This document shows positions 4,916-27,252 of a DNA stretch of 64,000 nucleotides, in pieces (within the stretch, counting starts at the first letter, position 1; the number at the start of each line of letters is the position of its first letter). Under the pieces are notes generated by a model. That model was not told the DNA's origin, ran no database searches, and saw only the letters and a program-made list of their open reading frames with translations. A program made the position numbers and the translations under genes. The stretch spans positions 640,553-704,552 of the forward strand of contig OZ242040.1 of assembly GCA_965205095.1 (NCBI GenBank), read 5' to 3'. This DNA comes from Candidatus Multivorans sp. GTDB lineage: Bacteria; Acidobacteriota; Thermoanaerobaculia; Multivoradales; Multivoraceae.

Positions 4916-4931
4916 TGGCACGAAACTGGCA
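4916..4931 (+). promoter_or_regulatory. Possible sigma54 (-24/-12) promoter
   Basis: TGGCACGAAACTGGCA has GG-N10-GC spacing, one mismatch to TTGC; ~70 bp upstream of the 5000 start. Confidence 0.4.
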
Positions 4932-4999
4932 CACGAAACCGGTTACAGCCGTCCGCCGTACTGCTAGTACGTAATCGACAACCCCGGAGGTCATCTCCC

Positions 5000-5833
5000 A
5001 TGCGTTACGCCACCATCTTCCGAGCCGCCGTCGTTGCCCTGTTGTTCTTCACCCTGCCGGCTCTCGCCATGGCCGAAACTGTCCGTATCCCGGCAGGCAC
5101 GACCGTCTACTGCGTCCTCGACGAGAGCCTCTCGACGAAGAAGAAATCAAGCAATTTCGTCCGGCTGGGAGACCGCGTCCGCGCCAAGGTCGCCGAGGAT
5201 GTCGTGATCGACGGCCGCGTCGTCATCGAAGCGGGTACCGTGGTCTGGTCCGAAGTCAGCAAGGCCCGGCGGGCCAAGGTCGCCGGCATCCGGGGTCGAC
5301 TCGAGGTGGAAGCCAACACCGTCGCCGCGGTGGACGACACCTCGATCCGCCTCGCCGGCGGCTACGACCGCTCCGGCAGAGGCCGCTTCGTGACCGCCGC
5401 GGTCCTGGCCAAGGTCATCGCCTGGCCGTTCATCCTGATCAAGGGCAAGCAGGCGCACTTGAGCCGCGGCGTCATCTTCGACGCCCAGACCGCGGCTCCG
5501 GCCGAAGTGGATGTCGTGGCGCCCCGGGATCTCCCGGTTCTCCGCGCCGACATCCCGGGATTCGAAGTGAGCATCCCGTACGACAGCATCGACCCGGAGG
5601 TGCGGCTGGCCAGCCTGCCGCTCCTGTTCACGGGACTGGCCGCGGACACCGACGAGGCCCACGTCACCGCCGTCAACGGGCAGACGATTCGACGGATCGA
5701 GATCTCCATCGTCGACGGGATGGGCGAGGTCGACTTCCAGGAACTGGCCGAGCACTTCCGGCTCGGAATGAACCGGTTCACCGTCACGGCGGAAGGCCAG
5801 AGCGTGGACGTGCTGCTGGAGTTCGAGTTCTAG
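5000..5833 (+). CDS. Secreted hypothetical protein
   Basis: GGAGG RBS, signal peptide ending ALAMA, beta-rich body (IPAGT..GD.V.A.VAEDV.IDGRVVI.AGT). Confidence 0.75.
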   Translation: MRYATIFRAAVVALLFFTLPALAMAETVRIPAGTTVYCVLDESLSTKKKSSNFVRLGDRVRAKVAEDVVIDGRVVIEAGTVVWSEVSKARRAKVAGIRGRLEVEANTVAAVDDTSIRLAGGYDRSGRGRFVTAAVLAKVIAWPFILIKGKQAHLSRGVIFDAQTAAPAEVDVVAPRDLPVLRADIPGFEVSIPYDSIDPEVRLASLPLLFTGLAADTDEAHVTAVNGQTIRRIEISIVDGMGEVDFQELAEHFRLGMNRFTVTAEGQSVDVLLEFEF

Positions 5834-16600: not shown

Positions 16601-17222
16601 GGTCGAGGACAAGGGGGTCGGCGGATCGGCGATGCAGGTGCTCGAGGCGCTGCTCCGCCTGCGGCAGGTCGCCTGCCATCCGGGGCTCATCGACGAGTCC
16701 TGGAACGACGCGGGCAGCGCCAAGCTCGAGTCGCTGTTCGAGCAGGTGTCCGAGGTGCTCGACGAGGGGCACAAGTGCCTCGTGTTCTCCCAGTTCACGT
16801 CGCTGCTGGCCTACGTACGGAGCCACTTCGAGGAACAGGGCGTCCCGTACGCCTACCTCGACGGCCAGACCCGGAACCGCGGGGAGGTGGTCGATCACTT
16901 CCAGAGCGACCCGGACACGAACATCTTTCTGATCAGCCTGAAGGCGGGCGGCGTCGGCCTGAACCTGACCGCCGCCGGCTACGTCTTCCTGCTCGACCCG
17001 TGGTGGAACCCGGCCGTCGAAGCGCAGGCCATCGACCGCACCCACCGCATAGGCCAGACCCAGCCCGTCTTTGCCTATCGCCTGATCGCCCGGGACACCG
17101 TGGAAGAGAAGATGCTGGAACTCCAGCGCTCGAAGCGGCAGATCGCCGACGCGATCCTCGAAGGCGGCGGATCGTCCCTGCGGGATCTCACCGCCGACGA
17201 TCTGCGGATGCTGCTGAGCTAG
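13608..17222 (+). CDS. SNF2/SWI2 family helicase with N-terminal SWIM zinc finger
   Basis: CDC...CGH SWIM motif; LADDMGLGKT, LDEAQ, LTGTPIEN, FSQF, AGGVGLNL, DPWWNP, QAIDRTHRIGQ; start uncertain (13431 or 13608). Confidence 0.95.
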   Translation: MPEAQGEHPTGTPAASKRRPARRRRRPRQRGGTGKTRAVALHQRSASHFRPEDRERGKAVFSAGNVKLEVDGTSARAIVEALAPCEGSAADEPAGNDATTVEIDWSRVPDERILHAVCDCPQFAGGTACGHIWASLLELAAKEPKSQPAGSGRVSLRKTRPPQVSIPGSALNTMDTPTAAANAPPRPSRRTRRSRSRRRRRTPATTSWRSVVDAVREDIEQQGLPEKTSAARHGEPEIRFLINAATSRTAGGLMIDIFGRKRNPQGELGKLKRLNIDHAKVEELLGLNSLDADASPTNGASPAAEPAMVTALPPEAPQRQGRKRKAGRGRPPGRPQIQRVFVPLNWVDHLLPRLSSSDQLFWWDGRSLANLHPVSFDDGAPWRLTLQLEIAAASRIRLRGLLKRGEETTPLSRAALVLPFSRGNGVTPGAEANEAGNTLLLLDNSIGRLHLEPQRDQPWYSLLGASGDLVIPDEDLEAAVTSLLELPALPPLELPEEVYLSEESPVPQPRLALEPEDAPEWMNPQLEARLSFGYGSLTVDAGDPRSAVVDWEEHRFVRRDQKVEQDALVRLLELGLKPVASKTGHSLELEPRDLPAVAEPLLTEGWEVEAHGASIRPPNPPALRIESGVDWFELSGQIDFGEDQIEFSEILSAISEGRRSVELDDGSKGLLPAAWVENYGSLSQLAQASSEEGLRFLPSQALLVDALLAVTPPVNVSKTFAELREKLSTFSSIKPKKEPRSFVGTLRNYQRLGLGWLCFLREFGLGGVLADDMGLGKTIQALAVLRMYRTASRTTKLPYLVVAPRSLVYNWIDEAARFTPDLKVLEYAGRDREELRGELTSADLVVTTYGTVRRDIGYLATVDFDTVILDEAQAIKNATSQTAKACRLLTGKHRLALTGTPIENHLGELGSIFEFLNPGLLGRLPALDVLAGGRAPSEQELALVAKGLRPFILRRSKREVLPDLPEKTEQILQCTLNPKQQEIYDQLRAGYRESLLKQVEDKGVGGSAMQVLEALLRLRQVACHPGLIDESWNDAGSAKLESLFEQVSEVLDEGHKCLVFSQFTSLLAYVRSHFEEQGVPYAYLDGQTRNRGEVVDHFQSDPDTNIFLISLKAGGVGLNLTAAGYVFLLDPWWNPAVEAQAIDRTHRIGQTQPVFAYRLIARDTVEEKMLELQRSKRQIADAILEGGGSSLRDLTADDLRMLLS

Positions 17223-17317
17223 AGCCGGGCGCCGGACGGGCGCCCGCACCGCCGCCGCCGCGCTTGCGCCGCGGCGGCGTCGACGACATCTGAGCCGGTT
17301 CGTCCGGCTGCAATCGG

Positions 17318-17356
17318 AGGGCCTTCGGAACCGACATGAGTTCCGAAGGCCCTTTT
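17318..17356 (+). terminator. Intrinsic terminator downstream of the SNF2 gene
   Basis: 14-bp stem AGGGCCTTCGGAAC / GTTCCGAAGGCCCT running into a short T-run. Confidence 0.75.
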
Positions 17357-17450
17357 GCGTCTTAGTCGATACACGCGGCCGCTGAACCCACGGCCACCGA
17401 CAACAACCCGGCCGCCCGGCCGTCACGAACGGAACTACTGGAGCTGGACG

Positions 17451-17672
17451 ATGACGTCCCCGAACCTCACTTCGAACCTCCGCCAACCACGAACCAGGCC
17501 GCGCGCTGGCCATCGGCTGCGCGGATGGAACCCCCGACTCTCCCAGCCTCCAGCCAGCGCCCTCGAAGCACGCCTGACCCGTGCGTTTCACATGCTCGAC
17601 GCCCCGTCGGCGCCGCTGGTCTCCATGCTGCACAGCCGGGCCACCGGCCCGGCGGGAAGGCGGCGGCGATGA
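17451..17672 (+). CDS. Small hypothetical protein (73 aa), possible first gene of the peptide cluster
   Basis: GGAG 7 nt upstream; stop overlaps the next start as ATGA; no recognisable domain. Confidence 0.35.
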   Translation: MTSPNLTSNLRQPRTRPRAGHRLRGWNPRLSQPPASALEARLTRAFHMLDAPSAPLVSMLHSRATGPAGRRRR

Positions 17673-18172
17673 ACCGCCGCCGCCTGGCCCTGGCCGCCGT
17701 CGTCGTGGCCGTCCTCGTCCCCCTCGGAGGTCTCCTCTGGTTCGAGTCCGGAATCCGCGCCCGGCAGGCACAGCGCCCGGAAGTCGGGGCGACGTTCCCC
17801 GCGCTGCCGGGCTTCGCGGACGGCGAGACCCTGCCGGCCGCTCCGGGACGGCTGCGGGTAGTCACGTTCGCCAGGGCCGGCTGCGGCAACTGCGACCGCA
17901 CCATCACCACCCTGCGCCGCCTGAACCGAACCGAAGATCCGACCTTCGACCTGATCGCGGTCGTCGCCGGCGCCCATGAGCCGGAAACGAACGGCGACGG
18001 CCTTCTCGCCATCGCCGACCCGGACGCCTCCGTCTCGAGGCGCTTCGGAGTGGTCCACGTGCCGCTCGTGTTCCTGGTCGACGAGCAGTCCCGGATCCTT
18101 GCAGTCGCCACCGGCGAACGTCCGGAGACCGCCTGGCGCGCCTTCCTGGAGTCCGGAACCGATGCGCTCTGA
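17669..18172 (+). CDS. Membrane-anchored thioredoxin-fold (TlpA/AhpC-like) thiol-disulfide oxidoreductase
   Basis: MNRRR plus TM anchor; VGATFP, CGNC active site, cis-Pro region GVVHVPLVFLVD. Confidence 0.8.
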   Translation: MNRRRLALAAVVVAVLVPLGGLLWFESGIRARQAQRPEVGATFPALPGFADGETLPAAPGRLRVVTFARAGCGNCDRTITTLRRLNRTEDPTFDLIAVVAGAHEPETNGDGLLAIADPDASVSRRFGVVHVPLVFLVDEQSRILAVATGERPETAWRAFLESGTDAL

Positions 18173-18764
18173 GCGATTCCGGATCCGTCCCCCGCACGCG
18201 GCGGCCGCCGGCCTGCTGGTTGCCGCCGGTCTCGTGACGGTCGCTGCCCGGACGCTGGGGCCGACCATGGACCGGCTCGCCTGGGCCGCCGCGCTCGACC
18301 CATCGGCGCCCGCCCCGGGCGAGGTGGTCCGCCAGCAAAGGCGCTCCGACTGCGGTCCGGCGGCCCTGAAGATGGTCCTGGACCACTGGGGCATCCAGGA
18401 CGTGACGCTCGCCGAGCTCGAGATCGCGACCGGAACCGGACCGGACGGCACCAGCCTCCTGGCGCTCAAGAAAGCCGCCGAGGAACGGGGCGTGACGAGC
18501 CAGGGGCTCCGGCTTCCGGTCCATCGGCTCCGCGAGATCCCGCTCCCCGCGATCGCCCACGTCCACGGCGACCACTTCGTCGTCATCCGCAGCACCGGCG
18601 ACGAACTCGTCATCGACGACCCCTCTCTCGGCCGGCTGCGCATGAGCTCCCGCGTCTTCGCCCGCTCCTGGGACGGGGTCGTTCTGAGCTTCACCGGCGG
18701 CCCTCCACCGATTCCGCGGACGGTACGAACCCCGTCCGTTTCACCCGCAACCTACAACCCTTGA
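18162..18764 (+). CDS. Stand-alone C39 family cysteine peptidase with N-terminal hydrophobic segment
   Basis: RQQRRSDCGPAALKM (Q, C), GTSLLAL, LPAIAH, HFVV (H), DDPSLG (D), FARSWDG; no ABC domain. Confidence 0.92.
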   Translation: MRSERFRIRPPHAAAAGLLVAAGLVTVAARTLGPTMDRLAWAAALDPSAPAPGEVVRQQRRSDCGPAALKMVLDHWGIQDVTLAELEIATGTGPDGTSLLALKKAAEERGVTSQGLRLPVHRLREIPLPAIAHVHGDHFVVIRSTGDELVIDDPSLGRLRMSSRVFARSWDGVVLSFTGGPPPIPRTVRTPSVSPATYNP

Positions 18765-18779
18765 AGGAGATACTCCTCT

Positions 18780-19106
18780 ATGAAACTCCGCGTTCTGTTT
18801 GTTTCCGCCCTCTTCCTGTTCCTCGCCGGAGCGGCACTGGCGACACCGACCGTCGGCGAACCGACCGTCCCCGACGAAGCCGAACTCCTGACCGCCTGGG
18901 ATCTGGAATCGCTTGCAGGCCCGACTTCGGCCGACTACTCGCTCGCCCCGCCGGTCGTCCCGCCCGAACCCACCGAGCTGGCGGTCTACTCGCCCTGCGG
19001 TTGCACGCCGATTCCCGGTTGTCCGTTCCCGATTCCCTGGCCCTCACCCGGCCCCACGTTCCCGTTCCCGCTGCCCGGTCCGTGCACGTGTCCGCTGCCG
19101 TTCTAG
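18780..19106 (+). CDS. Secreted Pro/Cys-rich precursor peptide P1
   Basis: AAGGAG RBS; Sec signal (..GAALA); leader-like LTAWDLESLAGP; Pro-rich C-terminus with 5 Cys. Confidence 0.8.
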   Translation: MKLRVLFVSALFLFLAGAALATPTVGEPTVPDEAELLTAWDLESLAGPTSADYSLAPPVVPPEPTELAVYSPCGCTPIPGCPFPIPWPSPGPTFPFPLPGPCTCPLPF

Positions 19107-19143
19107 TGCAGATGACACGCACATCTTCCGAAGGAGGACCGAC

Positions 19144-19320
19144 ATGAACACCACCTCAACCCTGATCGCGATCCTGCCCGAGGCCGACCTCGCGGCCGTC
19201 ACCGGCGGAAACGACTGGGTCGTCTCGGCGGCTTGCTGGGCGGCAGCGGTCTTCGTCGACGCCTTCTTTCCAGGCCTGGGTGCCCTGGTCTCCCTTTCCT
19301 GCCAGACCCCCGTCATCTGA
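19144..19320 (+). CDS. Double-glycine-leader bacteriocin-like precursor P2 (58 aa)
   Basis: AGGAGG RBS; leader MNTTSTLIAILPEADLAAVTGG; hydrophobic 36-aa core with 2 Cys. Confidence 0.85.
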   Translation: MNTTSTLIAILPEADLAAVTGGNDWVVSAACWAAAVFVDAFFPGLGALVSLSCQTPVI

Positions 19321-19371
19321 AACCACCACGAACGACTCATTCACATCTGAACCCCAAAAGGAACTTCACTC

Positions 19372-19692
19372 ATGACAAAGACCCTTCTAGCCGTTGCGGC
19401 GGGCGCTGCGCTGTCGGTCAGCGCAGCCGTTCCGCCACCTGATTCCCTTTCTCGCTCGCCCGTGGACTCCGAGCTGCGCACAGCAGCGACCGTTCACGAG
19501 CCTGCCATCGACCTCGGTCCGCCCTCCCTGCCCAACCAGGTTCTGGCGCAGACAGTGGGAACGGGTTCCACTTCCGACTTCCTCTGCGGAGCCGCCGCAG
19601 GAGCCGGTTTCGCCCTGACGCTGAGCGGCGTCGGGGCGATCCCCGGCGCACTGCTGGGCGGCGCCGGCATGGCCTGCGCCATGTTCTTCTGA
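19372..19692 (+). CDS. Bacteriocin-like precursor P3 (signal peptide + pro-region + Gly-rich core)
   Basis: AAGGA RBS; signal-like N-terminus; LPNQVLAQTVGTG leader-like motif; core STSDFLCGAAAGAG...GMACAMFF. Confidence 0.8.
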   Translation: MTKTLLAVAAGAALSVSAAVPPPDSLSRSPVDSELRTAATVHEPAIDLGPPSLPNQVLAQTVGTGSTSDFLCGAAAGAGFALTLSGVGAIPGALLGGAGMACAMFF

Positions 19693-19763
19693 GCTCAGCC
19701 ACTCGGCACAGCCAGTCAGTCAATCAATCAACCCAAACCACTTGATCCTCGAAAGGAAACGAT

Positions 19764-20060
19764 ATGTCCAAGAAAGCACTAGCCACAGTTCTCCTCATCA
19801 CTCTCGGCTTCGCCATCGCTCCAACGGCAGGGGCCAGCAGCCCTCCCGACTTTCCGGTCCCGGACGGCGGCGACCCGGCCGAGGCCGAGCAAGTCGGTGA
19901 ACTCGTCCTCGCGACGGCGACCGGCGGAACAAACTGGAGCTGCGTCGGCGCCGTCCTCGGCTTCAGTTTCACAGCTCTCGCAGCCGGCGCTGCGACCGGC
20001 GGCGTCGGTCTTGCCATCGTCGGAGCCTACGCGCCAGTTGCCCTCGTCCTTTGCTCCTAA
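19764..20060 (+). CDS. Bacteriocin-like precursor P4 (signal peptide + GG leader + core)
   Basis: AAGGA RBS; Sec signal (..TAGA); VGELVLATATGG; 43-aa hydrophobic core TNWSC...LCS. Confidence 0.85.
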   Translation: MSKKALATVLLITLGFAIAPTAGASSPPDFPVPDGGDPAEAEQVGELVLATATGGTNWSCVGAVLGFSFTALAAGAATGGVGLAIVGAYAPVALVLCS

Positions 20061-20197
20061 GCCCCTTCTTCAAACCCAGTAGACCACGTCAATAGAGAGT
20101 TCGATGGCCACGAAGAAGTCAGGAGCCCTGCCCAACCCATCGGGTCGACCTCCCACGTCTCCTGCGTGGCCATCGTCTCTCTACTCCGCAGAGATGT

Positions 20198-20227
20198 TTG
20201 ACGGACGCCATCCCGGCGCGCTAGCGT
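20198..20227 (+). promoter_or_regulatory. Sigma70-like promoter of structured element copy 1
   Basis: TTGACG-N18-TAGCGT; a homologous promoter is at 24460. Confidence 0.6.
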
Positions 20228-20233
20228 CCGCCC

Positions 20234-20369
20234 GTTGGTTGTCAGAGGCGCAGTGGGCCTGCGAGCCGGACCCCCTGCCATGCTTGGCCAGTGCCCCTGG
20301 GCCTAGGGTCGCTCCCTTCGTCAGGCGAAGCGGTGGGGGGTCTCGTCGCTCCTCTGCAAGGCGGCCAGC
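20234..20369 (+). ncRNA. Putative structured ncRNA, copy 1 (family not recognised)
   Basis: Rod-like pairing by eye; apical GGGTCGCTCCC; colinear homolog at 24495-24629 with base-pair-preserving differences. Confidence 0.6.
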
Positions 20370-20438
20370 GCGGTCCGCCGCCAGTCCTGGTGTCGGCCTT
20401 CCCCATCGCGAGAGCCGGACAGTGACCCCGAGGACTCC

Positions 20439-22025
20439 ATGGCCAGGTTGACTGTGCACGGAAGCCGGGCCGACCGGCTGCTGACCCTGGCACGGCTGGT
20501 GTTGCCGGACGCCATTCGGCGGGCCAACCAGCCATTGGCGGTGGTGGTTCTGGTCGCCATCCTGTTCTTCGTGTTCGCGACCGTCGCGACCCTGGGGTTG
20601 CTTCCGGCGATGTTTGCCATCGAGAGTGACGCACTGCGGAGAAACCTCCTGAGCCTGATCGCCTGCTCCGTGACGACGATCGCGCTGCTCGCCCAGGTGA
20701 CGCTTCGAGCGCCGGTTACCTGGCTGCTCGACCTGGAGGACCTGCTGCGGCTGCCCGTCGGCTTCCGGGACCTGTACGGGCTTCGGTTCGCTCTCAGCAC
20801 GATCGGGTACTGGCTCCCCGTTCTCGGTCCCGCCGGCGTCTACCTCACCGTCATGAGGTCGGGAGGTCTCAGCGGAGTGCCGGTCACCCTGCTGGGCATT
20901 CTTAGCCTGGTCTGGATCTTCGGCCGTACGGCGGCGATCCTGTCTCTTCTCGTCGACCGCTCGGTCGAAGGTGGGCTCGGCACACTGGCCATGGTGGTGA
21001 TCATGGCGGCCTGCCAGGGCGCGATTCTCTTCGGATCGCTGGCGTTCGGCGGCGAACTCGATTCCGAAGCGATCATTGGGGCGATTGAGGAGTCCGCCGT
21101 TCTCGGCGGCCTCGGCTACACGCCCCCCGGCCTCGTCGTCGGCATCGTCCACCAACCGGGGCCTTCGTTGCCGAATCTGGCGAGACTGGGCGGCCTGATG
21201 ATCGTTCTCGGCGCCCTGGTCGCGCTCGAGAACCGGCTCCTCCTTCGTAGCTACGTAGAACGTCCTGGCGGTGACCGCCGAGTCGCTTCCGGTGTGCTTC
21301 CTCTGGTCCGAACGCTCCGAAGATCCCGCCGTCTCACTCCCATGGCCACCCTTACGGTCCTCGAAACCGAATGCCTGTTGCGCCTCAAACCGGCAAGGTT
21401 AGTTCTGGCGATCGCGGTCGCCTTCGCCCTGGTCTGGTTACCTGCCTTCGCCGGTCTCGCCGTCGGTGTGGCCGGGCTCTTTGGACTTGCGCTTCATGGC
21501 TTCCGGGTGGAGAAGCAGCCATCGACCTGCTACGTATGGAGGGAATCGCTCGGCCTGCCCTTCACCGTCCCCCAGGTGTTTCGCGCAACCGGCCGTGCGC
21601 CCAGCGTGATCAGCGTCGTCGTTCTTGCTTTCATCCTGAGTCTGACGCCGCTCGACTGGTTCGGCTGGAGCTTCTTCCTGGCCGCGTCCTGCCTGATGCT
21701 CAGCGGCCTCCTCCTGGCCGGAGCCGCATACGGCCTGATCCAGGTCCACTGGCCCCAACGCAGTGCCGGCCCGAGCCACGAGACGAATGCCGCGAAGTTC
21801 GCGGCGTCACTCCTGTTGCCGCAGATCGCCTTCGCTCCAGTACTCCTCTCCTTCACTCTGTACATCCTGTACGAGCGCGAACGTCTCAGCGCTTCTACCG
21901 TCGGCCTCGTCGCGGCAGCAGTCCTCCTCCTCGCTGCCGGGGCCGCGTACGCGTCTCGTCGAAGGCAAAGACAGATGCTGAAAGCCCGGGGCCGCGAACT
22001 CCTCCTCGGAGACCCTTCCCACTAG
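20439..22025 (+). CDS. Multi-pass membrane protein, putative ABC exporter permease
   Basis: About 12 TM segments; LLRLPV motif; directly upstream of an ABC ATPase. Confidence 0.75.
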   Translation: MARLTVHGSRADRLLTLARLVLPDAIRRANQPLAVVVLVAILFFVFATVATLGLLPAMFAIESDALRRNLLSLIACSVTTIALLAQVTLRAPVTWLLDLEDLLRLPVGFRDLYGLRFALSTIGYWLPVLGPAGVYLTVMRSGGLSGVPVTLLGILSLVWIFGRTAAILSLLVDRSVEGGLGTLAMVVIMAACQGAILFGSLAFGGELDSEAIIGAIEESAVLGGLGYTPPGLVVGIVHQPGPSLPNLARLGGLMIVLGALVALENRLLLRSYVERPGGDRRVASGVLPLVRTLRRSRRLTPMATLTVLETECLLRLKPARLVLAIAVAFALVWLPAFAGLAVGVAGLFGLALHGFRVEKQPSTCYVWRESLGLPFTVPQVFRATGRAPSVISVVVLAFILSLTPLDWFGWSFFLAASCLMLSGLLLAGAAYGLIQVHWPQRSAGPSHETNAAKFAASLLLPQIAFAPVLLSFTLYILYERERLSASTVGLVAAAVLLLAAGAAYASRRRQRQMLKARGRELLLGDPSH

Positions 22026-22077
22026 CCCCTGCCCTACAACCCCCTCTGCCCCTACAACCACAAGGAACACCTCACGG

Positions 22078-22866
22078 ATGGAAGAAGCAATCAAGGCAGA
22101 GAACCTGACCCGGTCGTACGGAGGAAACGTCGTCGTCGACGGCGTCGACCTGGACGTCCGGGAGGGCCAGATCCTGGGTTTCGTCGGCCCCAACGGGGCC
22201 GGCAAGACGACGACCTGGTCGATGTTGACCGGAGTCTTGCAACCGACGAAGGGAACGGTGCGGCTGCTCGGCAAGCCGATGGACATCAACGACACCGAGC
22301 TCAAGCAGGAACTCGGCATCGTGCCCGATCACAGCGTGATGTTCGAGAGCCTGACCGGCGAGGAACTGCTGCTGTCGTATGCCCGCATCTATGGCCTGGG
22401 CCGCGAGGACGCCGGGCAGCGGACCGACGAGGCGCTCGCGGTGTTCGACCTCGAGGACGCCGCCAAGCGGCCGATCACGACCTACTCCCACGGCATGAGG
22501 AAGAAGATCCGCCTGGCCGCGGCGACCCTTCACGGTCCGCGAATCCTGTTCCTCGACGAGCCGTTCGAGGGGATGGACGCCCTGAGCGCCCGCACCGTCA
22601 TGTCGATCCTGCAGCAGATGGCCGAGCAGGGGGCAGCCATCTTCCTCACTTCCCACATGCTCGACTACGTCGAGCGCGTGTCGACCCACATCGCCGTCAT
22701 CAGGGACGGCAAGGTCCTTCTTTCGTGCTCCCGCGAGGAGTTCCGCGAACTGCCCGCCGCCGAGGGAGAAGACGGCGCCGGCCGGCTCGAGAACCTCATT
22801 CTCAGCATCTCCAGGCGCGAGAGGTTCTCCCGCCTCTCCTGGATCGGCAACAGGAGCACGACATGA
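22078..22866 (+). CDS. ABC transporter ATP-binding protein (ABC-2/drug export type)
   Basis: GPNGAGKTT, YSHGMRKK, LFLDEP, LTSH. Confidence 0.95.
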   Translation: MEEAIKAENLTRSYGGNVVVDGVDLDVREGQILGFVGPNGAGKTTTWSMLTGVLQPTKGTVRLLGKPMDINDTELKQELGIVPDHSVMFESLTGEELLLSYARIYGLGREDAGQRTDEALAVFDLEDAAKRPITTYSHGMRKKIRLAAATLHGPRILFLDEPFEGMDALSARTVMSILQQMAEQGAAIFLTSHMLDYVERVSTHIAVIRDGKVLLSCSREEFRELPAAEGEDGAGRLENLILSISRRERFSRLSWIGNRSTT

Positions 22867-23642
22867 CCGAGCATCCAGGCAGCACCCAAGGCGAACGCCA
22901 CGCCAAGACCAGCGGCGACGACTCACCGGGCCGGAACGCCTGGCTCACGGCGCTGGTCGGGCTCTTCGCGTCGCCGCGGCGGAGCCTCGAGATCATCCGG
23001 AACCGCAACCCATGGCTCGCAACGCTGCTCCTGGTCCTGGCCGGAAACGCCGCCCTGGCCCTGGCCTCCGCGCCGCTGGGTCTCCAGGCCATGCGGGCTC
23101 AACTGACGGAACGGATGCCTGGCAGCCCCGAACAGGTCGACGCCATGATGGCGCAGTTCGAACAGGCAGCCGCGGCAGGGCGTTGGCTGGCGATGGCCAC
23201 CGGCCCCCTCTCCGTGGCCGTCGGACTCGCGATTCAGACCGTCCTCGTGTGGCTGCTGGCGACCGCGCTCCAGGGACGGCTCCGATTCGTCCAGTCCCTC
23301 GCCCTGATGATCCACCTGGCCGTGATCACTCATCTCCAGGGCTGGGCCAACTTCCTTCTCGTTCACCTCCGCGGCAGCGACGCGATCCGCTCGCAACTGG
23401 ACCTCCGGGCGCCGATAGGACTCGACCTGCTGCTGGCCGGCGACAACGCGACGCTCAACGCCGTCTACGCGAGCATCAACCCGTTCACGATCTGGTTTCT
23501 CTCGCTGCTCGCCCTGGGCGCTGCCGCCGTGTTCGAGATCCCGCAGCGCAAGGCCTGGCTGCTGGCCGCCATCTACTGGGCAGCGACGACGGCCTTCACC
23601 GCCGTGGCGGCCGGTCTCTTTGCCCGGCTCACACCGAGCTGA
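22863..23642 (+). CDS. Yip1 domain membrane protein
   Basis: LFASPRRSLEIIR..PW, five TM segments, SINPFTIW..LLALG; ATGA overlap with the ATPase gene. Confidence 0.8.
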   Translation: MTEHPGSTQGERHAKTSGDDSPGRNAWLTALVGLFASPRRSLEIIRNRNPWLATLLLVLAGNAALALASAPLGLQAMRAQLTERMPGSPEQVDAMMAQFEQAAAAGRWLAMATGPLSVAVGLAIQTVLVWLLATALQGRLRFVQSLALMIHLAVITHLQGWANFLLVHLRGSDAIRSQLDLRAPIGLDLLLAGDNATLNAVYASINPFTIWFLSLLALGAAAVFEIPQRKAWLLAAIYWAATTAFTAVAAGLFARLTPS

Positions 23643-23687
23643 CCCGGCCGGCGACCCGGTTCGATCCCGCGTCGATACACTCCCCTC

Positions 23688-24386
23688 ATGGGCGAAGAAC
23701 CGGAGGCGAGCGGCCACCTCCGGTTCAAGGCCCTGATCTGGATCTTCACCGCTCCGCGGAAGAGCTTCGTCGTCATTCGCGAGCACCACCCGTGGGTCGC
23801 CGGCCTGGCCGTGGGCAGCTTCCTGATCGTCCTGGCCCTTCTGCTGAACGCATGGTGGTTCGGCGATGCCATGGGAAGCATCGGCGAGCCCCTCGAGATT
23901 CCCTACGGGATGGTCTCGTTCGTCCTGGCGGCCGTCCCGCTCACGCTCCTGTTCGAGGCCGCCGTGCTTCGGCTCCTGGCGGCGGCCATGAAGGGTCGGG
24001 CGCGGTTCGAGCAGTGCCTGTCGCTGGCGCTGCATGTCGGCCTCGTCGGCGCCGTGGGAGTGGTCGTCCGCTCGCTGTTGAGAACCACCCAGGTCGACAG
24101 CCTCCTCGAGCTGCAGCGGAGCGTCCTCGACAGGAAACCGGATTCCGGCCTCGACGTGATCGGGCAGGTAGCCGAAATGGCGCCCGGCGCGATTCTCGAC
24201 CTGATGATCCACTCCTTCGTCTTCATATGGTCCTTCCTCCTGCTCGGCCTGGGCGCCGCCGCGGTGTTCCGGCTGTCCCTACCAGCCGGGTTCGCCATCG
24301 CCGCGATCAACTGGGTGGCAGGAAAGGTGTTGGAGATCGGTTTGGCGGGCCTGATGATCGCGGCGGTGACGGCATCCTTCCCCTGA
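23688..24386 (+). CDS. Yip1 domain membrane protein (paralog)
   Basis: IFTAPRKSFVVIR..PW, GRARFEQCLSLALH, FIWSFLLLGLGAAAVF; aligns by eye with the preceding gene. Confidence 0.8.
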   Translation: MGEEPEASGHLRFKALIWIFTAPRKSFVVIREHHPWVAGLAVGSFLIVLALLLNAWWFGDAMGSIGEPLEIPYGMVSFVLAAVPLTLLFEAAVLRLLAAAMKGRARFEQCLSLALHVGLVGAVGVVVRSLLRTTQVDSLLELQRSVLDRKPDSGLDVIGQVAEMAPGAILDLMIHSFVFIWSFLLLGLGAAAVFRLSLPAGFAIAAINWVAGKVLEIGLAGLMIAAVTASFP

Positions 24387-24459
24387 CCGCGACGCGGCCA
24401 GGCGGCAGTTTTCGCCTCAGCGTTCGTCTCGGCCGCCGCCCCACAGATGGTCGAGTCGT

Positions 24460-24488
24460 TTGACGGACAATCGACCGCGCGGTAGCTT
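24460..24488 (+). promoter_or_regulatory. Sigma70-like promoter of structured element copy 2
   Basis: TTGACG-N17-TAGCTT. Confidence 0.65.
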
Positions 24489-24494
24489 CTCGCC

Positions 24495-24629
24495 GTTGGT
24501 TGTCGTCGCGCCGTGGGCCTGCGAGCCGGGTCTCCTGCCGAATACAACAGTCGACACCAGGCGCCGGGTCGCTCCCGGCGCTCGGCGAATAGGCAGGGCG
24601 TTTCGTGCCCACTGTGCATGGCGACCAAC
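24495..24629 (+). ncRNA. Putative structured ncRNA, copy 2
   Basis: GTTGGTTGTC/GGCGACCAAC closing stem, GTGGGC/GCCCAC, CCTGCC/GGCAGG, apical hairpin GCGCCGGG-TCGCT-CCCGGCGC. Confidence 0.65.
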
Positions 24630-24719
24630 AAGGCCCGGCGCCAACTCTCTCTGCCGGCCTCGGCCGCGGCATGCTGGTATAACGGTGGCACCAACCGGCT
24701 ATCGATGAGGGGAGAAACC

Positions 24720-25820
24720 ATGCCGAGCAGAGTTACTCTCGCTGCCGCCACCGCCGCGGCCGTCGCCTTCCTGGCGGTACCCGCTGCGCCTGCCGCCGAC
24801 GACGACGCGATCCCGCGCACGGCCTCAGGCCGTCCCGACCTGACCGGCGACTACGAGATCTCCACGCTGACCCCGTTGCAGCGACCTCAGGAGTTCGGCG
24901 ACAACCTGTACCTGACGCCCGAGCAGGCGGAAGAGATCGCCGAACGGGAGCGCCAGCGCGTAGCGGCACGCGCCGCCGTCCGCCGGATCGACGAACCGCC
25001 CCCGCCCGGCGGCGCGCCGCCCATCGGCCTCGGCGACGAGTTCCGGGAGACGAGCGGGGCCGGCAACGTCGGCGGCTACAACAACTTCTGGACGGATCGC
25101 GGCAGCGACGTGTTCTCGATCGACGGCAGGTTCCGGACCTCGATCATCGTCGATCCGCCGAACGGCCGGATGCCGCAACTGACCGCCGAGACGCTGCAGA
25201 GGATGTCCGAGCGCCGCGGTCGCCGGCGGGGCAACGACGGCACGGCCTGGTGGCTCGAGGTCGAGGGCCCCGGTCCGTACGACGGCCCCGAAAACCTGGG
25301 CGTCCCCGAACGCTGCCTGATCGGCTTCGGCTCCACCGGCGGACCTCCGATGCTGCCCGTGCTCTACAACAACGCCAAGCGGATCGTGCAGACCGAAGAC
25401 CACCTGATGATCCTGGTCGAGATGGTGCACGACGCGCGCATCGTCCGCATCGGCGGCGAGCACGTCCCGAAAGACGAGCGCCGCTGGCTCGGCGACTCGA
25501 TCGGCTGGTGGGAGGGCGACACACTCGTGGTCGAAACGACGAACTTCATCGACCGCCCGGCGCTCTTCCTGGCCTCACGGAACCTCAAGGTGACCGAGCG
25601 CTTCACACGGGTCAACGCGGACGACCTGCTCTACGCGTTCACGGTCGAGGACCCGACCGTGTGGAGCGCGCCCTGGAGCGGCGAGTACCTGTGGCCCGGC
25701 ACGCCCGCCAAGGTCTACGAGTACGCCTGCCACGAGGGGAACTACGCCATGGGCAACATCCTCAGGGGCGCGCGGCTGCTCGAGGACGAGACCCGCGGCG
25801 CGGCCAGCGGCGGCCAGTAG
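24720..25820 (+). CDS. Secreted hypothetical protein (PRT..G.PDL.G family)
   Basis: Signal peptide; IPRTASGRPDLTG, DPPNGRMP, ERC, GDSIGWWEGDTLVVETTNF, YEYACHEGNY; TGGTATAAC extended -10 upstream. Confidence 0.85.
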   Translation: MPSRVTLAAATAAAVAFLAVPAAPAADDDAIPRTASGRPDLTGDYEISTLTPLQRPQEFGDNLYLTPEQAEEIAERERQRVAARAAVRRIDEPPPPGGAPPIGLGDEFRETSGAGNVGGYNNFWTDRGSDVFSIDGRFRTSIIVDPPNGRMPQLTAETLQRMSERRGRRRGNDGTAWWLEVEGPGPYDGPENLGVPERCLIGFGSTGGPPMLPVLYNNAKRIVQTEDHLMILVEMVHDARIVRIGGEHVPKDERRWLGDSIGWWEGDTLVVETTNFIDRPALFLASRNLKVTERFTRVNADDLLYAFTVEDPTVWSAPWSGEYLWPGTPAKVYEYACHEGNYAMGNILRGARLLEDETRGAASGGQ

Positions 25821-25856
25821 TTCCCGAGCCGCTGCTCTCCCGAGCCGCTCCTTCCG

Positions 25857-26282
25857 CTACTGCTCGGTCGGATCCCGACCGTCGCGCGGCGCGCCCGTTC
25901 CCGAGGAACCCATGAACAGCTTGCGGCCGTCCGGGAAGGTCAGGTCGCGGCCGTTCGCCTTGTTCGAGCCGTCCTTCGCCTGGTAGCCGTCGACCACGAT
26001 CTCGGTCCCCGGCAGGAGCGACCTCTTCGTGAAGCCGCGCCTGGCGAGCGTGTTCGGCGTACCGCCTTCGACCATCCAGACGGTCGACGAGCCATCGTCG
26101 TTCATCACCTCCAGGTGAATCCAGGCGTGGGGATTGATCCACTCCATCTTCGTCACCTTGCCGCGAAGCTGGAGCGGCCTGTCGGCGTCGAACTCGGCCG
26201 AAAAGGCGTGATGAGCGGCGAGCGGAATGGCGAGCACCAGGGCGAAGCCTGCTGCCAGTAGGACGATTCGCTGGAACTTCAT
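25857..26282 (-). CDS. DUF6152 family secreted protein
   Basis: Signal peptide followed by HHAFSAEFD, EWINPH, WMVEGGTPN.L. Confidence 0.8.
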   Translation of the reverse strand: MKFQRIVLLAAGFALVLAIPLAAHHAFSAEFDADRPLQLRGKVTKMEWINPHAWIHLEVMNDDGSSTVWMVEGGTPNTLARRGFTKRSLLPGTEIVVDGYQAKDGSNKANGRDLTFPDGRKLFMGSSGTGAPRDGRDPTEQ

Positions 26283-26311
26283 CGCTGTTCTCCTCTCCTT
26301 GGCGGTATCCG

Positions 26312-27133
26312 TCAGGGACCCGAGTCGGCGCCCTTGCGCAGGTGGCCGTACATCAGCTCCTCGGCGAACTCGACGCACTTGAACTCGAGCAACTGCATGT
26401 TCGGGTCGACCCTGCGGTAGAGCGGCAGGCTGATCGTCCAGGGCTGGCTGTAGACGTTCTCGTCGGTGATCGTCGCCTCGTACTGGAGGTGATACGGGCT
26501 CATCGCGGTCCAGCGCTCCTCGACGTGGATCGCGTCCGTGTGGTGGTTACCGCTCGAGTCGAGCCAGGTGTCCGGCACCTGACTCGTCACGTCGACCACC
26601 AGTGTCTCCCCTTCCCAGCGACCGATCGAGTGTCCCATCCAGGTATCGAACGGAGCCTCGAAGCCCTCCCGGTTCATGTAGACCACGCGGCTGGCGCTGG
26701 CGAACTCGTAGGCGATCAGCACGTGATCGGGCGTCTGGACGATCTGGAACGGGAACGGCATGTAGTTGGCGCGCGGGATGCCCGGCATGTAGCACTTCAC
26801 CGCCGGATCGAGCGCCAGCCAGTTCTCGCGGTTCTGATCGCGCTTCTCCAGCGCCTCCGGCAGGTACGGGATCCTGCCGCCTTCGACGATGCCGAGACCG
26901 CCCGGTATCGCGCCCAGCGCGGCCATCTCGACCACCGGGCCGTGGCGCGCGGCGTGCGGTTCGATGTCCCAGTGGGCCGCGCCCAGCGCCTGCCAGATCC
27001 CGTTGAGATCCGGCCTGTCGTCGTGGGTGCGCGGCGCCCTGTAGTCGCTGTCCTGCGCCGCCGCGGGCACCGCCGCGAACACCAACGCCGCAAGCAGCGT
27101 CAACACCGCCCGTTCCGTGAGACTCCGCTTCAT
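26312..27133 (-). CDS. Secreted hypothetical protein, paralog of 24720-25820
   Basis: APRT..RPDLNGIWQ, DPAVKCYMPGIPR, GHSIGRWEGETLVVDV; GAGGAGG RBS. Confidence 0.85.
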   Translation of the reverse strand: MKRSLTERAVLTLLAALVFAAVPAAAQDSDYRAPRTHDDRPDLNGIWQALGAAHWDIEPHAARHGPVVEMAALGAIPGGLGIVEGGRIPYLPEALEKRDQNRENWLALDPAVKCYMPGIPRANYMPFPFQIVQTPDHVLIAYEFASASRVVYMNREGFEAPFDTWMGHSIGRWEGETLVVDVTSQVPDTWLDSSGNHHTDAIHVEERWTAMSPYHLQYEATITDENVYSQPWTISLPLYRRVDPNMQLLEFKCVEFAEELMYGHLRKGADSGP

Positions 27134-27252
27134 CACAATCTGCCTCCTCCGATGAGGGCCTGCTCTGGTCGCGAACGGTGAGGATAGCAGCCTGCTCGCC
27201 CGGTTCCCCCGCGACTCGGGCTCGAACCGGCTGGCGCTAACATGGTCATCCG

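What the first reader, a model, noticed from the sequence alone, without database searches (positions are those of the whole stretch)
17451..24386. Bacteriocin/RiPP-like cluster with hybrid 'Sec signal + double-glycine leader' precursors
Seen: a same-strand cluster of a TM-anchored CGNC thioredoxin-fold protein, a stand-alone C39 peptidase, four short precursor genes with clear RBSs, an ABC permease, an ABC ATPase and two Yip1 proteins. All four precursors carry a motif that fits the C39 recognition pattern (hydrophobic or beta-branched residues at -12, -7, -4, then a Gly site): LTAWDLESLAGP, LPEADLAAVTGG, LPNQVLAQTVGT(G), VGELVLATATGG. P1, P3 and P4 also begin with a signal-peptide-like segment. 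Known: GG leaders are normally cut in the cytoplasm by the C39 domain of a PCAT exporter, and Sec-exported bacteriocins normally lack GG leaders. No PCAT, HlyD or side-chain modifying enzyme is visible here. Inference: precursors cross the inner membrane by Sec, are disulfide-bonded by the CxxC protein, and are activated outside the cytoplasm by the C39 enzyme. I do not recognise this two-step route as a described bacteriocin class.
Basis: partly seen in the sequence, partly recalled or inferred. Interest (0 to 1): 0.88.

Follow-up and report, generated by a model that had tools for sequence, protein, structure and literature searches.

The report
Sec-exported peptides cut by periplasmic C39
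A sponge-associated acidobacterium carries a conserved gene cluster whose small hydrophobic peptides have both an ordinary export signal and a bacteriocin-type double-glycine leader, and they are probably trimmed outside the cytoplasm by a membrane-anchored protease, a maturation route not described for such peptides.

Summary
The gene content is real. It comprises a TM-anchored CGNC thioredoxin-fold protein, a 200-aa stand-alone C39 peptidase, four small genes with strong RBSs, a 12-TM-type permease, a DrrA-like ABC ATPase and two Yip1/YknW-like proteins. This C39 is the only one in the complete 5.1-Mb genome, so there is no PCAT.

The locus is syntenic in 17 of 17 fetched orthologous loci of the genus (Acidobacteriota, 'Ca. 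Multivorans'). Its architecture recurs in other acidobacterial families.

Of 64 signal-peptide-like, non-Pro-rich small ORFs, 42 carry a strict double-glycine leader motif just before the first core Cys (shuffles: mean 3.6, maximum 9). Cores are about 43 aa, rich in Gly and Ala, with one Cys near each end. P1 belongs to a different, Pro/Cys-rich family and has no conserved Gly site.

The C39 keeps Gln/Cys/His/Asp, and a TM helix with K/R on its N side predicts an outward-facing domain. Six thioredoxin-C39 fusion proteins exist. The nearest precedents are the periplasmic C39 enzymes FapD and FilB.

Antibacterial activity, the role of the CxxC protein and passage across the outer membrane remain open. 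I class it as a new variant of a known kind.

The parts
17669..18172 (+). Membrane-anchored thioredoxin-fold protein with CGNC (P0003, 167 aa)
   Evidence: Sub-threshold Redoxin, TraF and Thioredoxin_2 hits. The CxxC is conserved as CGNC in 36 of 37 aligned orthologue segments. Distant counterparts and fusions score above the Pfam cut-offs.
18162..18764 (+). Stand-alone C39 cysteine peptidase with an N-terminal TM anchor (P0002, 200 aa)
   Evidence: PF03412 E 8.5e-31. It aligns to LahT150, PCAT1 and ComA with Q58, C64, H138 and D153 kept. It is the only C39 in the genome.
18780..19106 (+). P1: signal peptide plus a Pro/Cys-rich tail. A separate family, not a GG-leader substrate
   Evidence: It is the first gene after C39 in the genus loci. 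0 of 26 unique members have the GG motif. dN/dS is 0.32-0.49.
19144..19320 (+). P2: classical N-terminal GG-leader peptide (LPEADLAAVTGG|NDW...) without a signal peptide
   Evidence: dN/dS is 0.65-1.16. An RNA-library contig covers 19141-19307, which is only a weak hint of transcription.
19372..19692 (+). P3 (family A): signal peptide, linker, LPNQVLAQTVGT|G site and a Gly/Ala-rich core bracketed by two Cys
   Evidence: dN/dS is 0.32-0.62.
19764..20060 (+). P4 (family B): signal peptide, linker, VGELVLATATGG|T site and a Gly/Ala-rich core bracketed by two Cys
   Evidence: In alignment A2, G54, G55, C60 and C97 are invariant. 78 homologues were found; all that carry a name are called 'hypothetical', and none has a Pfam domain.
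20196..20384 (+). Conserved ~190-nt element, copy 1, upstream of the permease gene. Candidate promoter and/or structured leader RNA
   Evidence: No Rfam match at E<=1.
20439..22025 (+). Large polytopic permease (528 aa), probably the membrane subunit of the ABC exporter
   Evidence: No Pfam hit. Atlas feature neighbours carry 12TM_1, ABC_export or ABC_tran_2 on 10-45% of members, score 0.95-0.97; this is a lead only. An extra paralogue co-occurs with peptide families C+D.
22078..22866 (+). ABC ATPase, DrrA/ABC-2 type
22860..23642 (+). Yip1/YknW-like membrane protein a
   Evidence: Pfam Yip1 8.5e-10; NCBIfam YknW_fam 4e-18, 65.7 bits against a cut-off of 110.
23688..24386 (+). Yip1/YknW-like membrane protein b (second copy, absent from most related loci)
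   Evidence: Pfam Yip1 6.7e-11. Among the 17 syntenic loci only L014, L015 and L016 have a close counterpart. A DNA contig of a relative joins 23644 to 24444.
24458..24643 (+). Conserved ~190-nt element, copy 2, downstream of Yip1b and upstream of the next + strand gene
   Evidence: 70% identical to copy 1.

Best explanation
This is a two-operon locus for small, membrane-active, bacteriocin-like peptides that mature outside the cytoplasm.

Step 1 (inferred): P3, P4 and their many relatives are exported by Sec through a normal N-terminal signal peptide.

Step 2 (inferred from motif, topology and genomics): a membrane-anchored C39 cysteine peptidase, with its catalytic domain in the periplasm, recognises an internal double-glycine leader (L-12, L/A-7, V/T/I-4, G-2, G/A/T/S-1). 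It cuts there and frees a hydrophobic, glycine-zipper-rich core of about 43 aa.

Step 3 (inferred): the two Cys near the core's ends form a disulfide that staples a helical hairpin. The co-translated CxxC thioredoxin-fold protein acts in the same compartment, either making or checking that disulfide or keeping the protease's catalytic thiol reduced.

Step 4 (inferred by analogy): the separately promoted 12-TM permease, DrrA-type ATPase and Yip1/YknW-like proteins remove the peptides from the producer's inner membrane, for self-protection and/or onward export.

P1 is a different secreted Pro/Cys-rich peptide. P2 is a signal-less GG peptide under weak constraint.
For: - This is the only C39 in a 99%-complete single-contig genome.
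- An orthologue is present in 36 of 36 genus genomes searched. In the same order outside the genus, nearly all matches lie in PCAT-length frames.
- 17 of 17 fetched orthologous loci keep Trx-C39 next to the same SNF2 gene. 16 of 17 show the ATPase and Yip1, while the peptide set between them varies.
- 90 of 106 unique small ORFs between C39 and the ATPase are signal-peptide-like, against 14 of 221 ATG-started ORFs of the window by the same rule.
- Of the 64 signal-peptide-like, non-Pro-rich ORFs, 42 (strict) or 49 (relaxed) have the GG motif ending no more than 12 aa before the first core Cys. Shuffles give means of 3.6 and 13.1, and maxima of 9 and 21.
- 45 of 49 cores have exactly two Cys: the first at residue 2-9, and the last 0-6 residues from the C-terminus in 48 of 49.
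- 48 of 49 cores hold small-xxx-G-xxx-small, against a shuffle mean of 34.3 and maximum of 43.
- C64, H138 and D153 are invariant and Q58 nearly so. The domain aligns to LahT150 at 1.8e-13.
- 69 of 86 homologues have a TM helix before the catalytic Cys with more K/R on its N side.
- Six proteins fuse an AhpC-TSA/Redoxin domain to the C39 behind one anchor.
- 149 of the best 150 representatives of the family are 345 aa or shorter, and 206 representatives reach E<=1e-30.
- The same architecture is seen in 7 of the 12 further loci in which the C39 query matched (13 fetched: 12 from other acidobacterial genomes, 1 a genus paralogue).
- dN/dS of P1, P3 and P4 is 0.25-0.70.
- A periplasmic C39 is active in the Fap system (PMC5557850).
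- The Yip1 protein YknW with an ABC pump protects Bacillus from the disulfide-bonded SDP peptide (PMC4887032).
- One paralogous peptide (L033) gives sub-threshold hits to Bacteriocin_IIc (0.0077) and bact_IIb_cerein (0.0084).
Against: - Nothing was measured. There is no SignalP or topology predictor here, and no proteomic or cleavage data.
- 15 of 64 peptides miss even the relaxed motif, although most show a near-miss G-x-G site.
- Related sequences are not independent, so the counts overstate the support.
- No outer-membrane export component lies in the locus, so release from a diderm cell is unexplained.
- The genome shows DsbD_TM but neither DsbB nor VKOR. TlpA-like folds are usually reductants (recalled). 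Both points argue against the CxxC protein being the oxidase.
- P3 and P4 themselves match no bacteriocin family.
- P2 has no signal peptide, and there is no PCAT to export it.
- The AF2 model of P4 has low confidence, pLDDT 56.9.
- RNA evidence is limited to four short contigs in one metatranscriptome that may contain DNA.
Confidence: 0.6

Rival explanations
1. Maturation is the same (Sec, then periplasmic C39), but the products are not weapons. They would be resident two-helix micro-proteins of the producer's own inner membrane or envelope, for example modulators or subunits. The ABC/Yip1 module would then be a partner or an unrelated efflux system.
For: The cores are hydrophobic enough to be a TM hairpin: mean KD 1.31, and two helices in the low-confidence model. 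No outer-membrane exporter lies in the locus. No bacteriocin family matches P3 or P4. The ABC module has its own conserved upstream element.
Against: The peptide set is hypervariable and multi-copy between conserved flanks, and it is swapped as pairs (A+B, C+D) together with a matching extra permease in L014, L020, L024 and L027. That is the pattern of toxin/immunity cassettes. Housekeeping micro-proteins are not expected to vary like this. dN/dS of 0.25-0.7 is high for structural subunits.
Confidence: 0.2
2. The peptides are subunits of a surface fibre or aggregate, as in the Fil pilus, Fap amyloid or Cdz systems. The C39 would act as the subunit-maturing peptidase.
For: The C39 gives weak NCBIfam hits to FapD (1.4e-11) and FilB (3.2e-4). 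The L033 peptide gives a weak hit to FilA (0.038) and DUF6160 (9.4e-4). The cores are rich in glycine zippers, as are the aggregate-forming CdzC and CdzD (PMC5380434, abstract and passages).
Against: The FapD and FilB scores are far below cut-off (44 against 330 bits, 20 against 475). The C39 scores better against PCAT models (3.4e-23). No FapF match was found in the genome, although that control rang in no genome. A true Fil/Fap-like locus from another acidobacterium (L067) looks different: its C39 has a cleavable signal peptide and sits next to a FapF/FilC-like barrel.
Confidence: 0.1
3. A conventional cytoplasmic reading. The C39 domain would face the cytoplasm, the hydrophobic N-termini would not be export signals, and the peptides would leave through the ABC transporter after cleavage.
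For: C39 domains of PCATs act in the cytoplasm (stated in PMC5557850). An ABC exporter is encoded nearby. P2 has a classical signal-less leader.
Against: The N-termini follow the signal-peptide pattern in 90 of 106 ORFs. The positive-inside rule puts the C39 outside in 69 of 86 homologues against 6 the other way. C39 is fused behind a membrane anchor to TlpA-like redox domains, which are extracytoplasmic when anchored like this (recalled). The paired Cys in the cores also fit an oxidising compartment.
Confidence: 0.06
4. The small ORFs are chance frames in GC-rich DNA and are not genes.
For: In 68% GC DNA long spurious ORFs abound. P2 shows dN/dS near 1.
Against: The ORFs have strong RBSs. Their order and reading frames are conserved across species, and dN/dS is below 1 for P1, P3 and P4. 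The same architecture occurs in distant families. Gene callers predicted 78 family-B homologues in public data.
Confidence: 0.02

Closest known systems
PCAT / AMS transporters with double-glycine leader peptides (class II bacteriocins, microcins; LahT, PCAT1, ComA)
   Same: The protease domain is homologous and has the same Gln/Cys/His/Asp residues. The leader logic is the same: hydrophobic residues at -12, -7 and -4, G at -2, and G/A/S/T at -1. The cargo is small, hydrophobic and Gly-rich.
   Different: Here the C39 is a 200-aa membrane-anchored stand-alone protein predicted to face the periplasm. No PCAT exists in the genome. The leader sits behind a Sec-type signal peptide and a variable linker, 40-77 aa in total before the site. 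The neighbouring ABC system is of the ABC-2/DrrA type and has no peptidase.
FapD (Pseudomonas functional amyloid) and FilB (Acinetobacter Fil pilus, NCBIfam NF050078)
   Same: These are C39 peptidases that work in the periplasm on Sec-exported partners. FapD is shown to be active there (PMC5557850).
   Different: The window's C39 is far below both family cut-offs. FapD's substrate and recognition site are unknown and Fap proteins lack the canonical leader (same paper). Those systems include a FapF/FilC outer-membrane barrel, which this locus lacks. FapD has a cleavable signal peptide, whereas the C39 here appears to be held by an uncleaved N-terminal TM anchor.
SDP (SdpC) toxin with YknWXYZ protection in Bacillus
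   Same: A hydrophobic peptide of about 42 aa with one intramolecular disulfide is protected against by an ABC pump that needs a Yip1-family protein, YknW (PMC4887032). From recall, SdpC is Sec-exported and then processed.
   Different: The peptides show no sequence relation, and SDP processing uses SdpA/SdpB rather than a C39 (recalled). YknYZ is MacB-type with the membrane fusion protein YknX. Here the permease is a 12-TM type and no fusion protein is present.
CdzC/CdzD glycine-zipper two-peptide bacteriocin of Caulobacter
   Same: A diderm producer makes small hydrophobic glycine-zipper proteins in pairs, they act on membranes, and an inner-membrane protein gives immunity (PMC5380434).
   Different: [quoted passage not shown] No thioredoxin or stand-alone C39 is involved.
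TlpA / ResA / DsbE periplasmic thiol-disulfide oxidoreductases
   Same: An N-terminal anchor, an AhpC-TSA/Redoxin-type thioredoxin fold and a CxxC motif.
   Different: The similarity is very weak: NCBIfam E 0.03-0.06 and PDB DsbE 0.027. The protein is dedicated to a peptidase, to the point of fusion. Its direction of action (oxidant or reductant) is unknown.

Membership tests
PCAT-type double-glycine processing/export system | C39 domain with catalytic Cys/His (plus Gln, Asp) | tested here: met
   PF03412 E 8.5e-31. C64, H138 and D153 are invariant and Q58 is nearly invariant in 20 homologues. The domain aligns to 6mpz, 4ry2 and 3k8u.
PCAT-type double-glycine processing/export system | C39 fused to the ABC exporter's TMD and NBD | tested here: not met
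   The protein is 200 aa and stands alone. There is one PF03412 match in the whole genome. 149 of the best 150 relatives are 345 aa or shorter.
PCAT-type double-glycine processing/export system | The leader is the extreme N-terminus of a cytoplasmic precursor, with no Sec signal | tested here: not met
   P3 and P4, and 90 of 106 unique small ORFs, start with a signal-peptide-like segment, and the GG site lies 40-77 residues in. Only the P2 family fits the classical form.
FapD / FilB periplasmic C39 peptidases | Score above the NCBIfam family cut-off | tested here: not met
   FapD 44.1 bits against 330; FilB 20.2 bits against 475.
FapD / FilB periplasmic C39 peptidases | Extracytoplasmic location of the peptidase | tested here: inconclusive
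   This is predicted only: a TM helix at residues 13-29 with 4 K/R on the N side and 2 on the C side. 69 of 86 homologues show the same bias. No experimental or dedicated predictor result is available.
FapD / FilB periplasmic C39 peptidases | Partner outer-membrane barrel (FapF/FilC) | tested here: inconclusive
   No match to NF058560 in the own genome, but the control rang in none of the 14 genomes. No such gene lies in the locus.
YknWXYZ-type peptide-toxin protection pump | Yip1/YknW-family membrane protein next to an ABC ATPase | tested here: met
   Pfam Yip1 is above its cut-off for both copies (39.2 and 42.8 bits against 28.6). NCBIfam YknW_fam is below its cut-off (65.7 bits against 110).
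YknWXYZ-type peptide-toxin protection pump | MacB/FtsX-type permease with a membrane fusion protein | tested here: not met
   The permease has no FtsX or MacB hit. Its feature neighbours are 12TM_1, ABC_export and ABC_tran_2. No HlyD-like gene lies in the locus.
TlpA/ResA/DsbE thiol-disulfide oxidoreductases | Thioredoxin fold with a conserved CxxC behind an N-terminal anchor | tested here: inconclusive
   The CxxC is conserved in 37 of 37 aligned segments. The window protein is just under the Pfam cut-offs. Distant and fused counterparts are above them.
Class IIb / glycine-zipper two-peptide bacteriocins | Paired small peptides with GxxxG-type motifs and a GG leader | tested here: inconclusive
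   The motifs and the pairing (A+B, C+D) are present. Only one paralogous peptide gives sub-threshold family hits, and P3 and P4 give none. Activity was not tested.

The most novel reading that the evidence does not exclude
A large, unrecognised family of membrane-anchored, outward-facing C39 peptidases, often paired or fused with a thioredoxin-fold domain, defines an extracytoplasmic maturation pathway for double-glycine-leader peptides. These peptides reach the periplasm by Sec rather than through a PCAT. The products would be a new class of Gram-negative bacteriocins, disulfide-stapled glycine-zipper hairpins, with ABC-2/Yip1 immunity. The system would also give the first clear substrate motif for periplasmic C39 enzymes.
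Probability: 0.45. Interest if true: 0.85.

Novelty: new variant of a known kind. Interest (0 to 1): 0.72.

Why it matters
Double-glycine leaders are taught as cytoplasmic signals read by the peptidase domain of the exporter. Genome-mining tools look for them at the N-terminus and next to a PCAT. If the route inferred here is right, a bipartite 'signal peptide plus GG leader' and a periplasmic C39 make up a second way to mature such peptides, and current miners would miss it.

The family is not small. 206 representatives at 50% identity score E<=1e-30, and nearly all the best ones are stand-alone.

The system would also offer a defined substrate motif for periplasmic C39 enzymes; FapD's target is still unknown. 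It would supply a natural thioredoxin-protease fusion for study, and a pool of unexplored membrane-active peptides from uncultured sponge symbionts.

Tried and rejected
- Complex prediction on the C39 domain (alignment A3, residues 45-185) with the P4 pro-peptide (alignment A2, residues 25-98): no verdict (score 0.13, mark 0.32). It counts neither for nor against binding.
- AF2 model of the P4 family: pLDDT 56.9, too low for a fold search. Only its secondary structure is quoted.
- Rfam: no family matched at E<=1 in 17000-26000.
- The sigma-70 pattern scan found 0 promoters in 17200-24800. The terminator-like hits are not above chance in any useful way.
- RNA evidence: one metatranscriptome run (X20) holds four short contigs on the stretch: 19141-19307, 20244-20438, 20896-21069 and 22591-22869. 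The depths are low, DNA carry-over is possible, and uncovered parts say nothing. I treat this as a weak hint only.
- The strict regex for the GG motif also fires inside signal peptides and Gly-rich cores. I therefore counted only motifs ending 0-12 residues before the first Cys after residue 30, and compared the result with shuffles.
- Paper search was wasted because the prefix 'filb' matched 'filbert'. It was repeated with whole words, which found only one mention of the Fil pilus subunit FilA.
- The FapF family search in the own genome found nothing, but its control rang nowhere, so absence is not shown.
- PDB search with the thioredoxin-fold protein gave only weak DsbE/thioredoxin hits, E 0.027 or weaker.
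- I considered Flp-type pilins and rejected them. There is no G|xxxxEY-type site, and the weak hits to Bd0108, TafF and flagellin (E 0.0018-0.3) are below every cut-off.
No supplements of papers were requested, and the supplements of PMC5557850 (Fap motifs) might bear on the comparison with FapD.

Full report
**What is there**

Between 17669 and 24386 on the + strand lie ten genes.
- A thioredoxin-fold protein with CGNC and an N-terminal hydrophobic anchor. It gives only sub-threshold Redoxin-type Pfam hits.
- A 200-aa C39 peptidase (PF03412, E 8.5e-31). Its start overlaps the preceding stop.
- Four small genes, P1-P4, each with a GGAG/AGGA-type ribosome-binding site.
- A 528-aa polytopic protein with no Pfam family.
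- A DrrA-like ABC ATPase.
- Two Yip1 proteins that resemble YknW below the NCBIfam cut-off.

By the titles of closely related contigs, the organism is a sponge-associated member of the Acidobacteriota, class Thermoanaerobaculia, 'Candidatus Multivorans'. The DNA runs that hold the stretch are mostly sponge metagenomes.

**No PCAT, and a conserved locus with a variable middle**

The complete 5.11-Mb genome (99% complete, one contig) has a single match to the C39 family.

An orthologue of this stand-alone C39 is present in 36 of 36 genus genomes searched. In other families of the same order nearly all matches lie in frames of 700 aa or more, which is PCAT length.

I fetched 20 loci from the genus. 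Seventeen are syntenic with the window, just downstream of the same SNF2 helicase. All 17 keep Trx and C39, and 16 of 17 show the ATPase and a Yip1 gene within the stretch fetched. The seventeenth, L017, is interrupted by a 430-aa ORF that looks like a transposase, which I did not test.

The small genes between these conserved flanks differ from species to species and fall into families.
- Family A is P3-like and family B is P4-like. They usually occur together.
- Families C and D also occur together. In all four loci that have them (L014, L020, L024, L027) there is an extra permease paralogue of about 31% identity.
- Family E is a further signal-peptide-bearing family.
- Family F is P2-like and has no signal peptide.

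Swapping of peptide pairs together with a matching membrane protein is the pattern of toxin/immunity cassettes.

**Anatomy of the peptides**

I defined candidates without using the motif: ATG start, RBS, 45-140 aa, same strand, and lying between the C39 and the ATPase. This gave 131 ORFs, 106 of them unique.

Ninety of the 106 pass a simple signal-peptide rule: K/R in the first eight residues, and an uncharged 10-residue window of mean hydropathy at least 1.7 near the N-terminus. Only 14 of 221 ATG-started ORFs in the window's six frames pass the same rule.

Twenty-six of the 90 are P1-like, with a Pro-rich second half. None of them has a double-glycine motif before its first Cys. P1's 'LTAWDLESLAGP' is therefore not a conserved cleavage site.

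Of the other 64:
- 42 have the strict motif [LIVMF]x4[LIVMFA]x2[LIVMFAT]xG[GAST] ending 0-12 residues before the first core Cys. Residue shuffles give a mean of 3.6 and a maximum of 9.
- 49 have the relaxed motif, which drops the -12 position. Shuffles give a mean of 13.1 and a maximum of 21.
- The 15 misses mostly show near-miss sites such as GAG, GRG or AGG.

Anchored on the site, L dominates at -12 (32 of 49) and at -7 (30 of 49). T, V or I fill -4 (43 of 49). G is at -2 by definition. This consensus is recalled from the bacteriocin literature and did not come from a call.

The linker between signal peptide and motif is not conserved.

The cores have a median length of 43 aa and are 40% Gly plus Ala. 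They are hydrophobic and close to neutral. In 45 of 49 there are exactly two Cys: the first at residue 2-9, and the last 0-6 residues from the C-terminus in 48 of 49. Forty-eight of 49 hold a small-xxx-G-xxx-small zipper (shuffles: mean 34.3, maximum 43).

In the family B alignment G54, G55, C60 and C97 are invariant. A low-confidence AF2 model (pLDDT 56.9) shows a helix for the signal peptide, a disordered linker, a helix for the leader that ends at the GG, and two core helices.

dN/dS is 0.25-0.70 for P1, P3 and P4, and 0.65-1.16 for P2. The first three are under purifying selection. P2 is weakly constrained or diversifying.

These sequences are related to one another, so the counts are not independent observations.

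**The peptidase**

The C39 domain aligns to the solved GG-proteases LahT150 (1.8e-13), PCAT1 and ComA. Across 20 diverse homologues C64, H138 and D153 are invariant and Q58 is nearly so.

Residues 13-29 form a hydrophobic helix with four K/R before it and two after. Of 86 homologues with a recognisable catalytic Cys, 69 have such a helix with more K/R on its N side. Six show the reverse, five tie, and six have no clear helix. By the positive-inside rule the catalytic domain faces the periplasm.

Six proteins (P0090, P0146, P0164, P0188, P0204, P0216) carry an AhpC-TSA/Redoxin domain and the C39 in one chain. In P0090 both follow a single N-terminal anchor. The two activities therefore work in the same compartment and on a common task. 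From recall, membrane-anchored domains of this type are extracytoplasmic.

A profile search of 1.84 billion representatives found 206 proteins at E<=1e-30. Of the best 150, 149 are 345 aa or shorter. This is a sizeable family of stand-alone enzymes, not a one-off.

**Spread in the phylum**

In a sample of 401 acidobacterial genomes, 85 have a match at E<=1e-8. That tally includes one genome flagged unpublished, G209, from which nothing else was used. The best matches outside the genus are all in short frames of 225-438 aa.

I fetched 13 further loci: 12 from other acidobacterial genomes and one, L069, a second C39 locus of a genus genome. Twelve show the C39 by tblastn, and eleven of those have an ABC ATPase downstream on the same strand.

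Seven of them (L059, L060, L061, L062, L063, L066, L069) have one or two small ORFs directly after the C39 with the same build: a signal peptide, a G-G/G-A/G-T site, and a Gly-rich core with Cys near both ends. In L060 and L063, and weakly in L066, a Redoxin/AhpC-TSA protein with CxxC precedes the C39. L063 also has a Yip1 gene.

My scan found no such peptides in L057, L058, L064, L065 or L067. L065 looks like a split conventional system: its C39 has no anchor, and I read the upstream frame as HlyD-like by eye without testing it. L067 is a Fil/Fap-like locus, with a FilB-like C39 (2.1e-32) next to a FapF/FilC-like barrel.

**The redox protein**

Its CxxC is conserved: CGNC in 36 of 37 aligned genus segments and CPAC in one. 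The distant loci have CGVC, CDIC and CPAC. The fusions have CPHC (twice), CPYC, CSHC, CSYC and CSNC.

The genome has DsbA-family matches and one DsbD-type membrane domain. Neither DsbB nor VKOR was found.

Two roles fit:
- The protein forms or proofreads the Cys-Cys staple of the cores. The bracket of two Cys and the CPHC of some fusions point this way; that CPHC is the DsbA motif is recalled.
- It keeps the catalytic thiol of a periplasmic cysteine protease reduced. The TlpA-like fold and the presence of DsbD without DsbB/VKOR point this way.

I cannot decide between them.

**The transporter module and its flanking element**

The permease's nearest feature neighbours in the ESM Atlas are clusters in which a minority of members carry 12TM_1, ABC_export or ABC_tran_2 (scores 0.95-0.97). 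This is a lead and not a test.

With the DrrA-type ATPase and the Yip1 proteins, it resembles peptide-protection pumps. In Bacillus the Yip1 protein YknW is needed by an ABC pump that protects cells from SDP, a 42-aa peptide with one disulfide (PMC4887032, passages).

The module is flanked by two copies of a conserved ~190-nt element (20196-20384 and 24458-24643, 70% identical). These are the only two in the genome. Both copies were matched in most of the related genus loci searched.

The element begins with an invariant TTGACG-17 nt-TAGCGT/TAGCTT. It can fold into a long rod of 42 pairs with 98.2% of cells paired, against 41-48% when the partners are slid. Five pairs show changes on both sides, and the covariation exceeds all 500 shuffles. 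The structure was derived from these same sequences, which inflates those figures. Rfam has no match.

The outermost helix uses the TTGACG, so the promoter reading and the RNA reading conflict at that point.

**How it most likely works**

- Sec export is inferred from the signal-peptide pattern.
- Cleavage by the outward-facing C39 at the internal GG leader is inferred from the motif, the residues, the topology, the fusions and the absence of any other C39.
- Disulfide stapling of a two-helix hairpin is inferred from the Cys bracket.
- Removal from the producer's membrane by the ABC/Yip1 module is inferred by analogy and from the co-variation of permease and peptide types.

How the peptides would cross the outer membrane is unexplained. 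They may stay associated with the cell, as Cdz proteins do (PMC5380434).

**Comparison with what is known, and novelty**

The protease and leader are those of PCAT systems, but two defining features fail: fusion to the exporter, and a cytoplasmic N-terminal leader.

A periplasmic C39 is known from FapD. Its authors note that this class is uncharacterised and its target unknown (PMC5557850, passages). NCBIfam also names FilB a putative pilus C39 peptidase. The window's enzyme is far below both cut-offs and closer to the PCAT models.

My searches of the held literature found no description of GG-leader peptides with Sec signals matured by a periplasmic C39:
- double-glycine, signal peptide, C39, periplasm
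- C39, vitamin K epoxide reductase, thioredoxin
- 'periplasmic C39' and similar phrases
- Acidobacteria, C39, bacteriocin, signal peptide
- FilA, FilB, C39

The library lacks most subscription journals, so this is not proof of absence.

Public annotation leaves family B unnamed or calls it 'hypothetical protein' (78 homologues, none with a Pfam domain).

I rate the finding a new variant of a known kind, with high interest for peptide natural-product and secretion biology. Every mechanistic step is inferred.

Noticed in passing
window 20196-20384 and 24458-24643: Two direct copies (70% identical) of a conserved ~190-nt element flank the Perm-ATPase-Yip1 module, and they are the only two in the genome. 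Each begins with an invariant TTGACG-17 nt-TAGCGT/TAGCTT and can fold into a 42-pair rod with some compensatory changes. Rfam has no match. It is a candidate shared promoter and/or a new cis-regulatory leader RNA.
   Followed up: partly
window 18780-19106 (P1) and its homologues in L014-L044: P1 is a genus-wide family of secreted peptides with a signal peptide and a Pro/Cys-rich tail (e.g. ...ELAVYxPCGC...PFPxPWP...). It is always the first gene after the C39. It has no GG site and matches no family. Its function is unknown.
   Followed up: partly
window 19144-19320 (P2): P2 is a classical signal-less GG-leader peptide in a genome without a PCAT. Its core start (NDWVV..C) resembles the family C cores that do carry signal peptides. 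dN/dS is 0.65-1.16, so it may be a decaying or fast-diversifying derivative. An RNA-library contig covers exactly this gene.
   Followed up: partly
L017 (oriented coordinates 4274-5566): A 430-aa ORF that looks like a transposase sits inside the peptide region of one relative's locus, which also has duplicated permease fragments. This suggests insertion-driven turnover of the cassette. It was not tested against any family.
   Followed up: no
L067 (another acidobacterial genome): This is a separate Fil/Fap-like system: a C39 with a cleavable signal peptide (FilB 2.1e-32, FapD 1.3e-23) next to a FapF/FilC-like barrel. It is preceded by a 164-aa secreted protein that carries '...MDDSTLSRVTAA...' after its signal peptide, so periplasmic C39 systems of the known kind also occur in the phylum.
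   Followed up: partly
window 23644-24444: A DNA contig from a related strain in a sponge metagenome (run X7) joins 23644 to 24444 with 34 other letters between, so that strain lacks the second Yip1 gene. This agrees with most related loci having one Yip1.
   Followed up: no
window 24705-25820, 25857-26378 (-), 26312-27286 (-): Downstream of element copy 2 lies a 371-aa secreted-looking protein with no Pfam family. On the opposite strand are a DUF6152 protein and another protein with no Pfam family. Whether the first of these is co-regulated with the ABC module is open.
   Followed up: no
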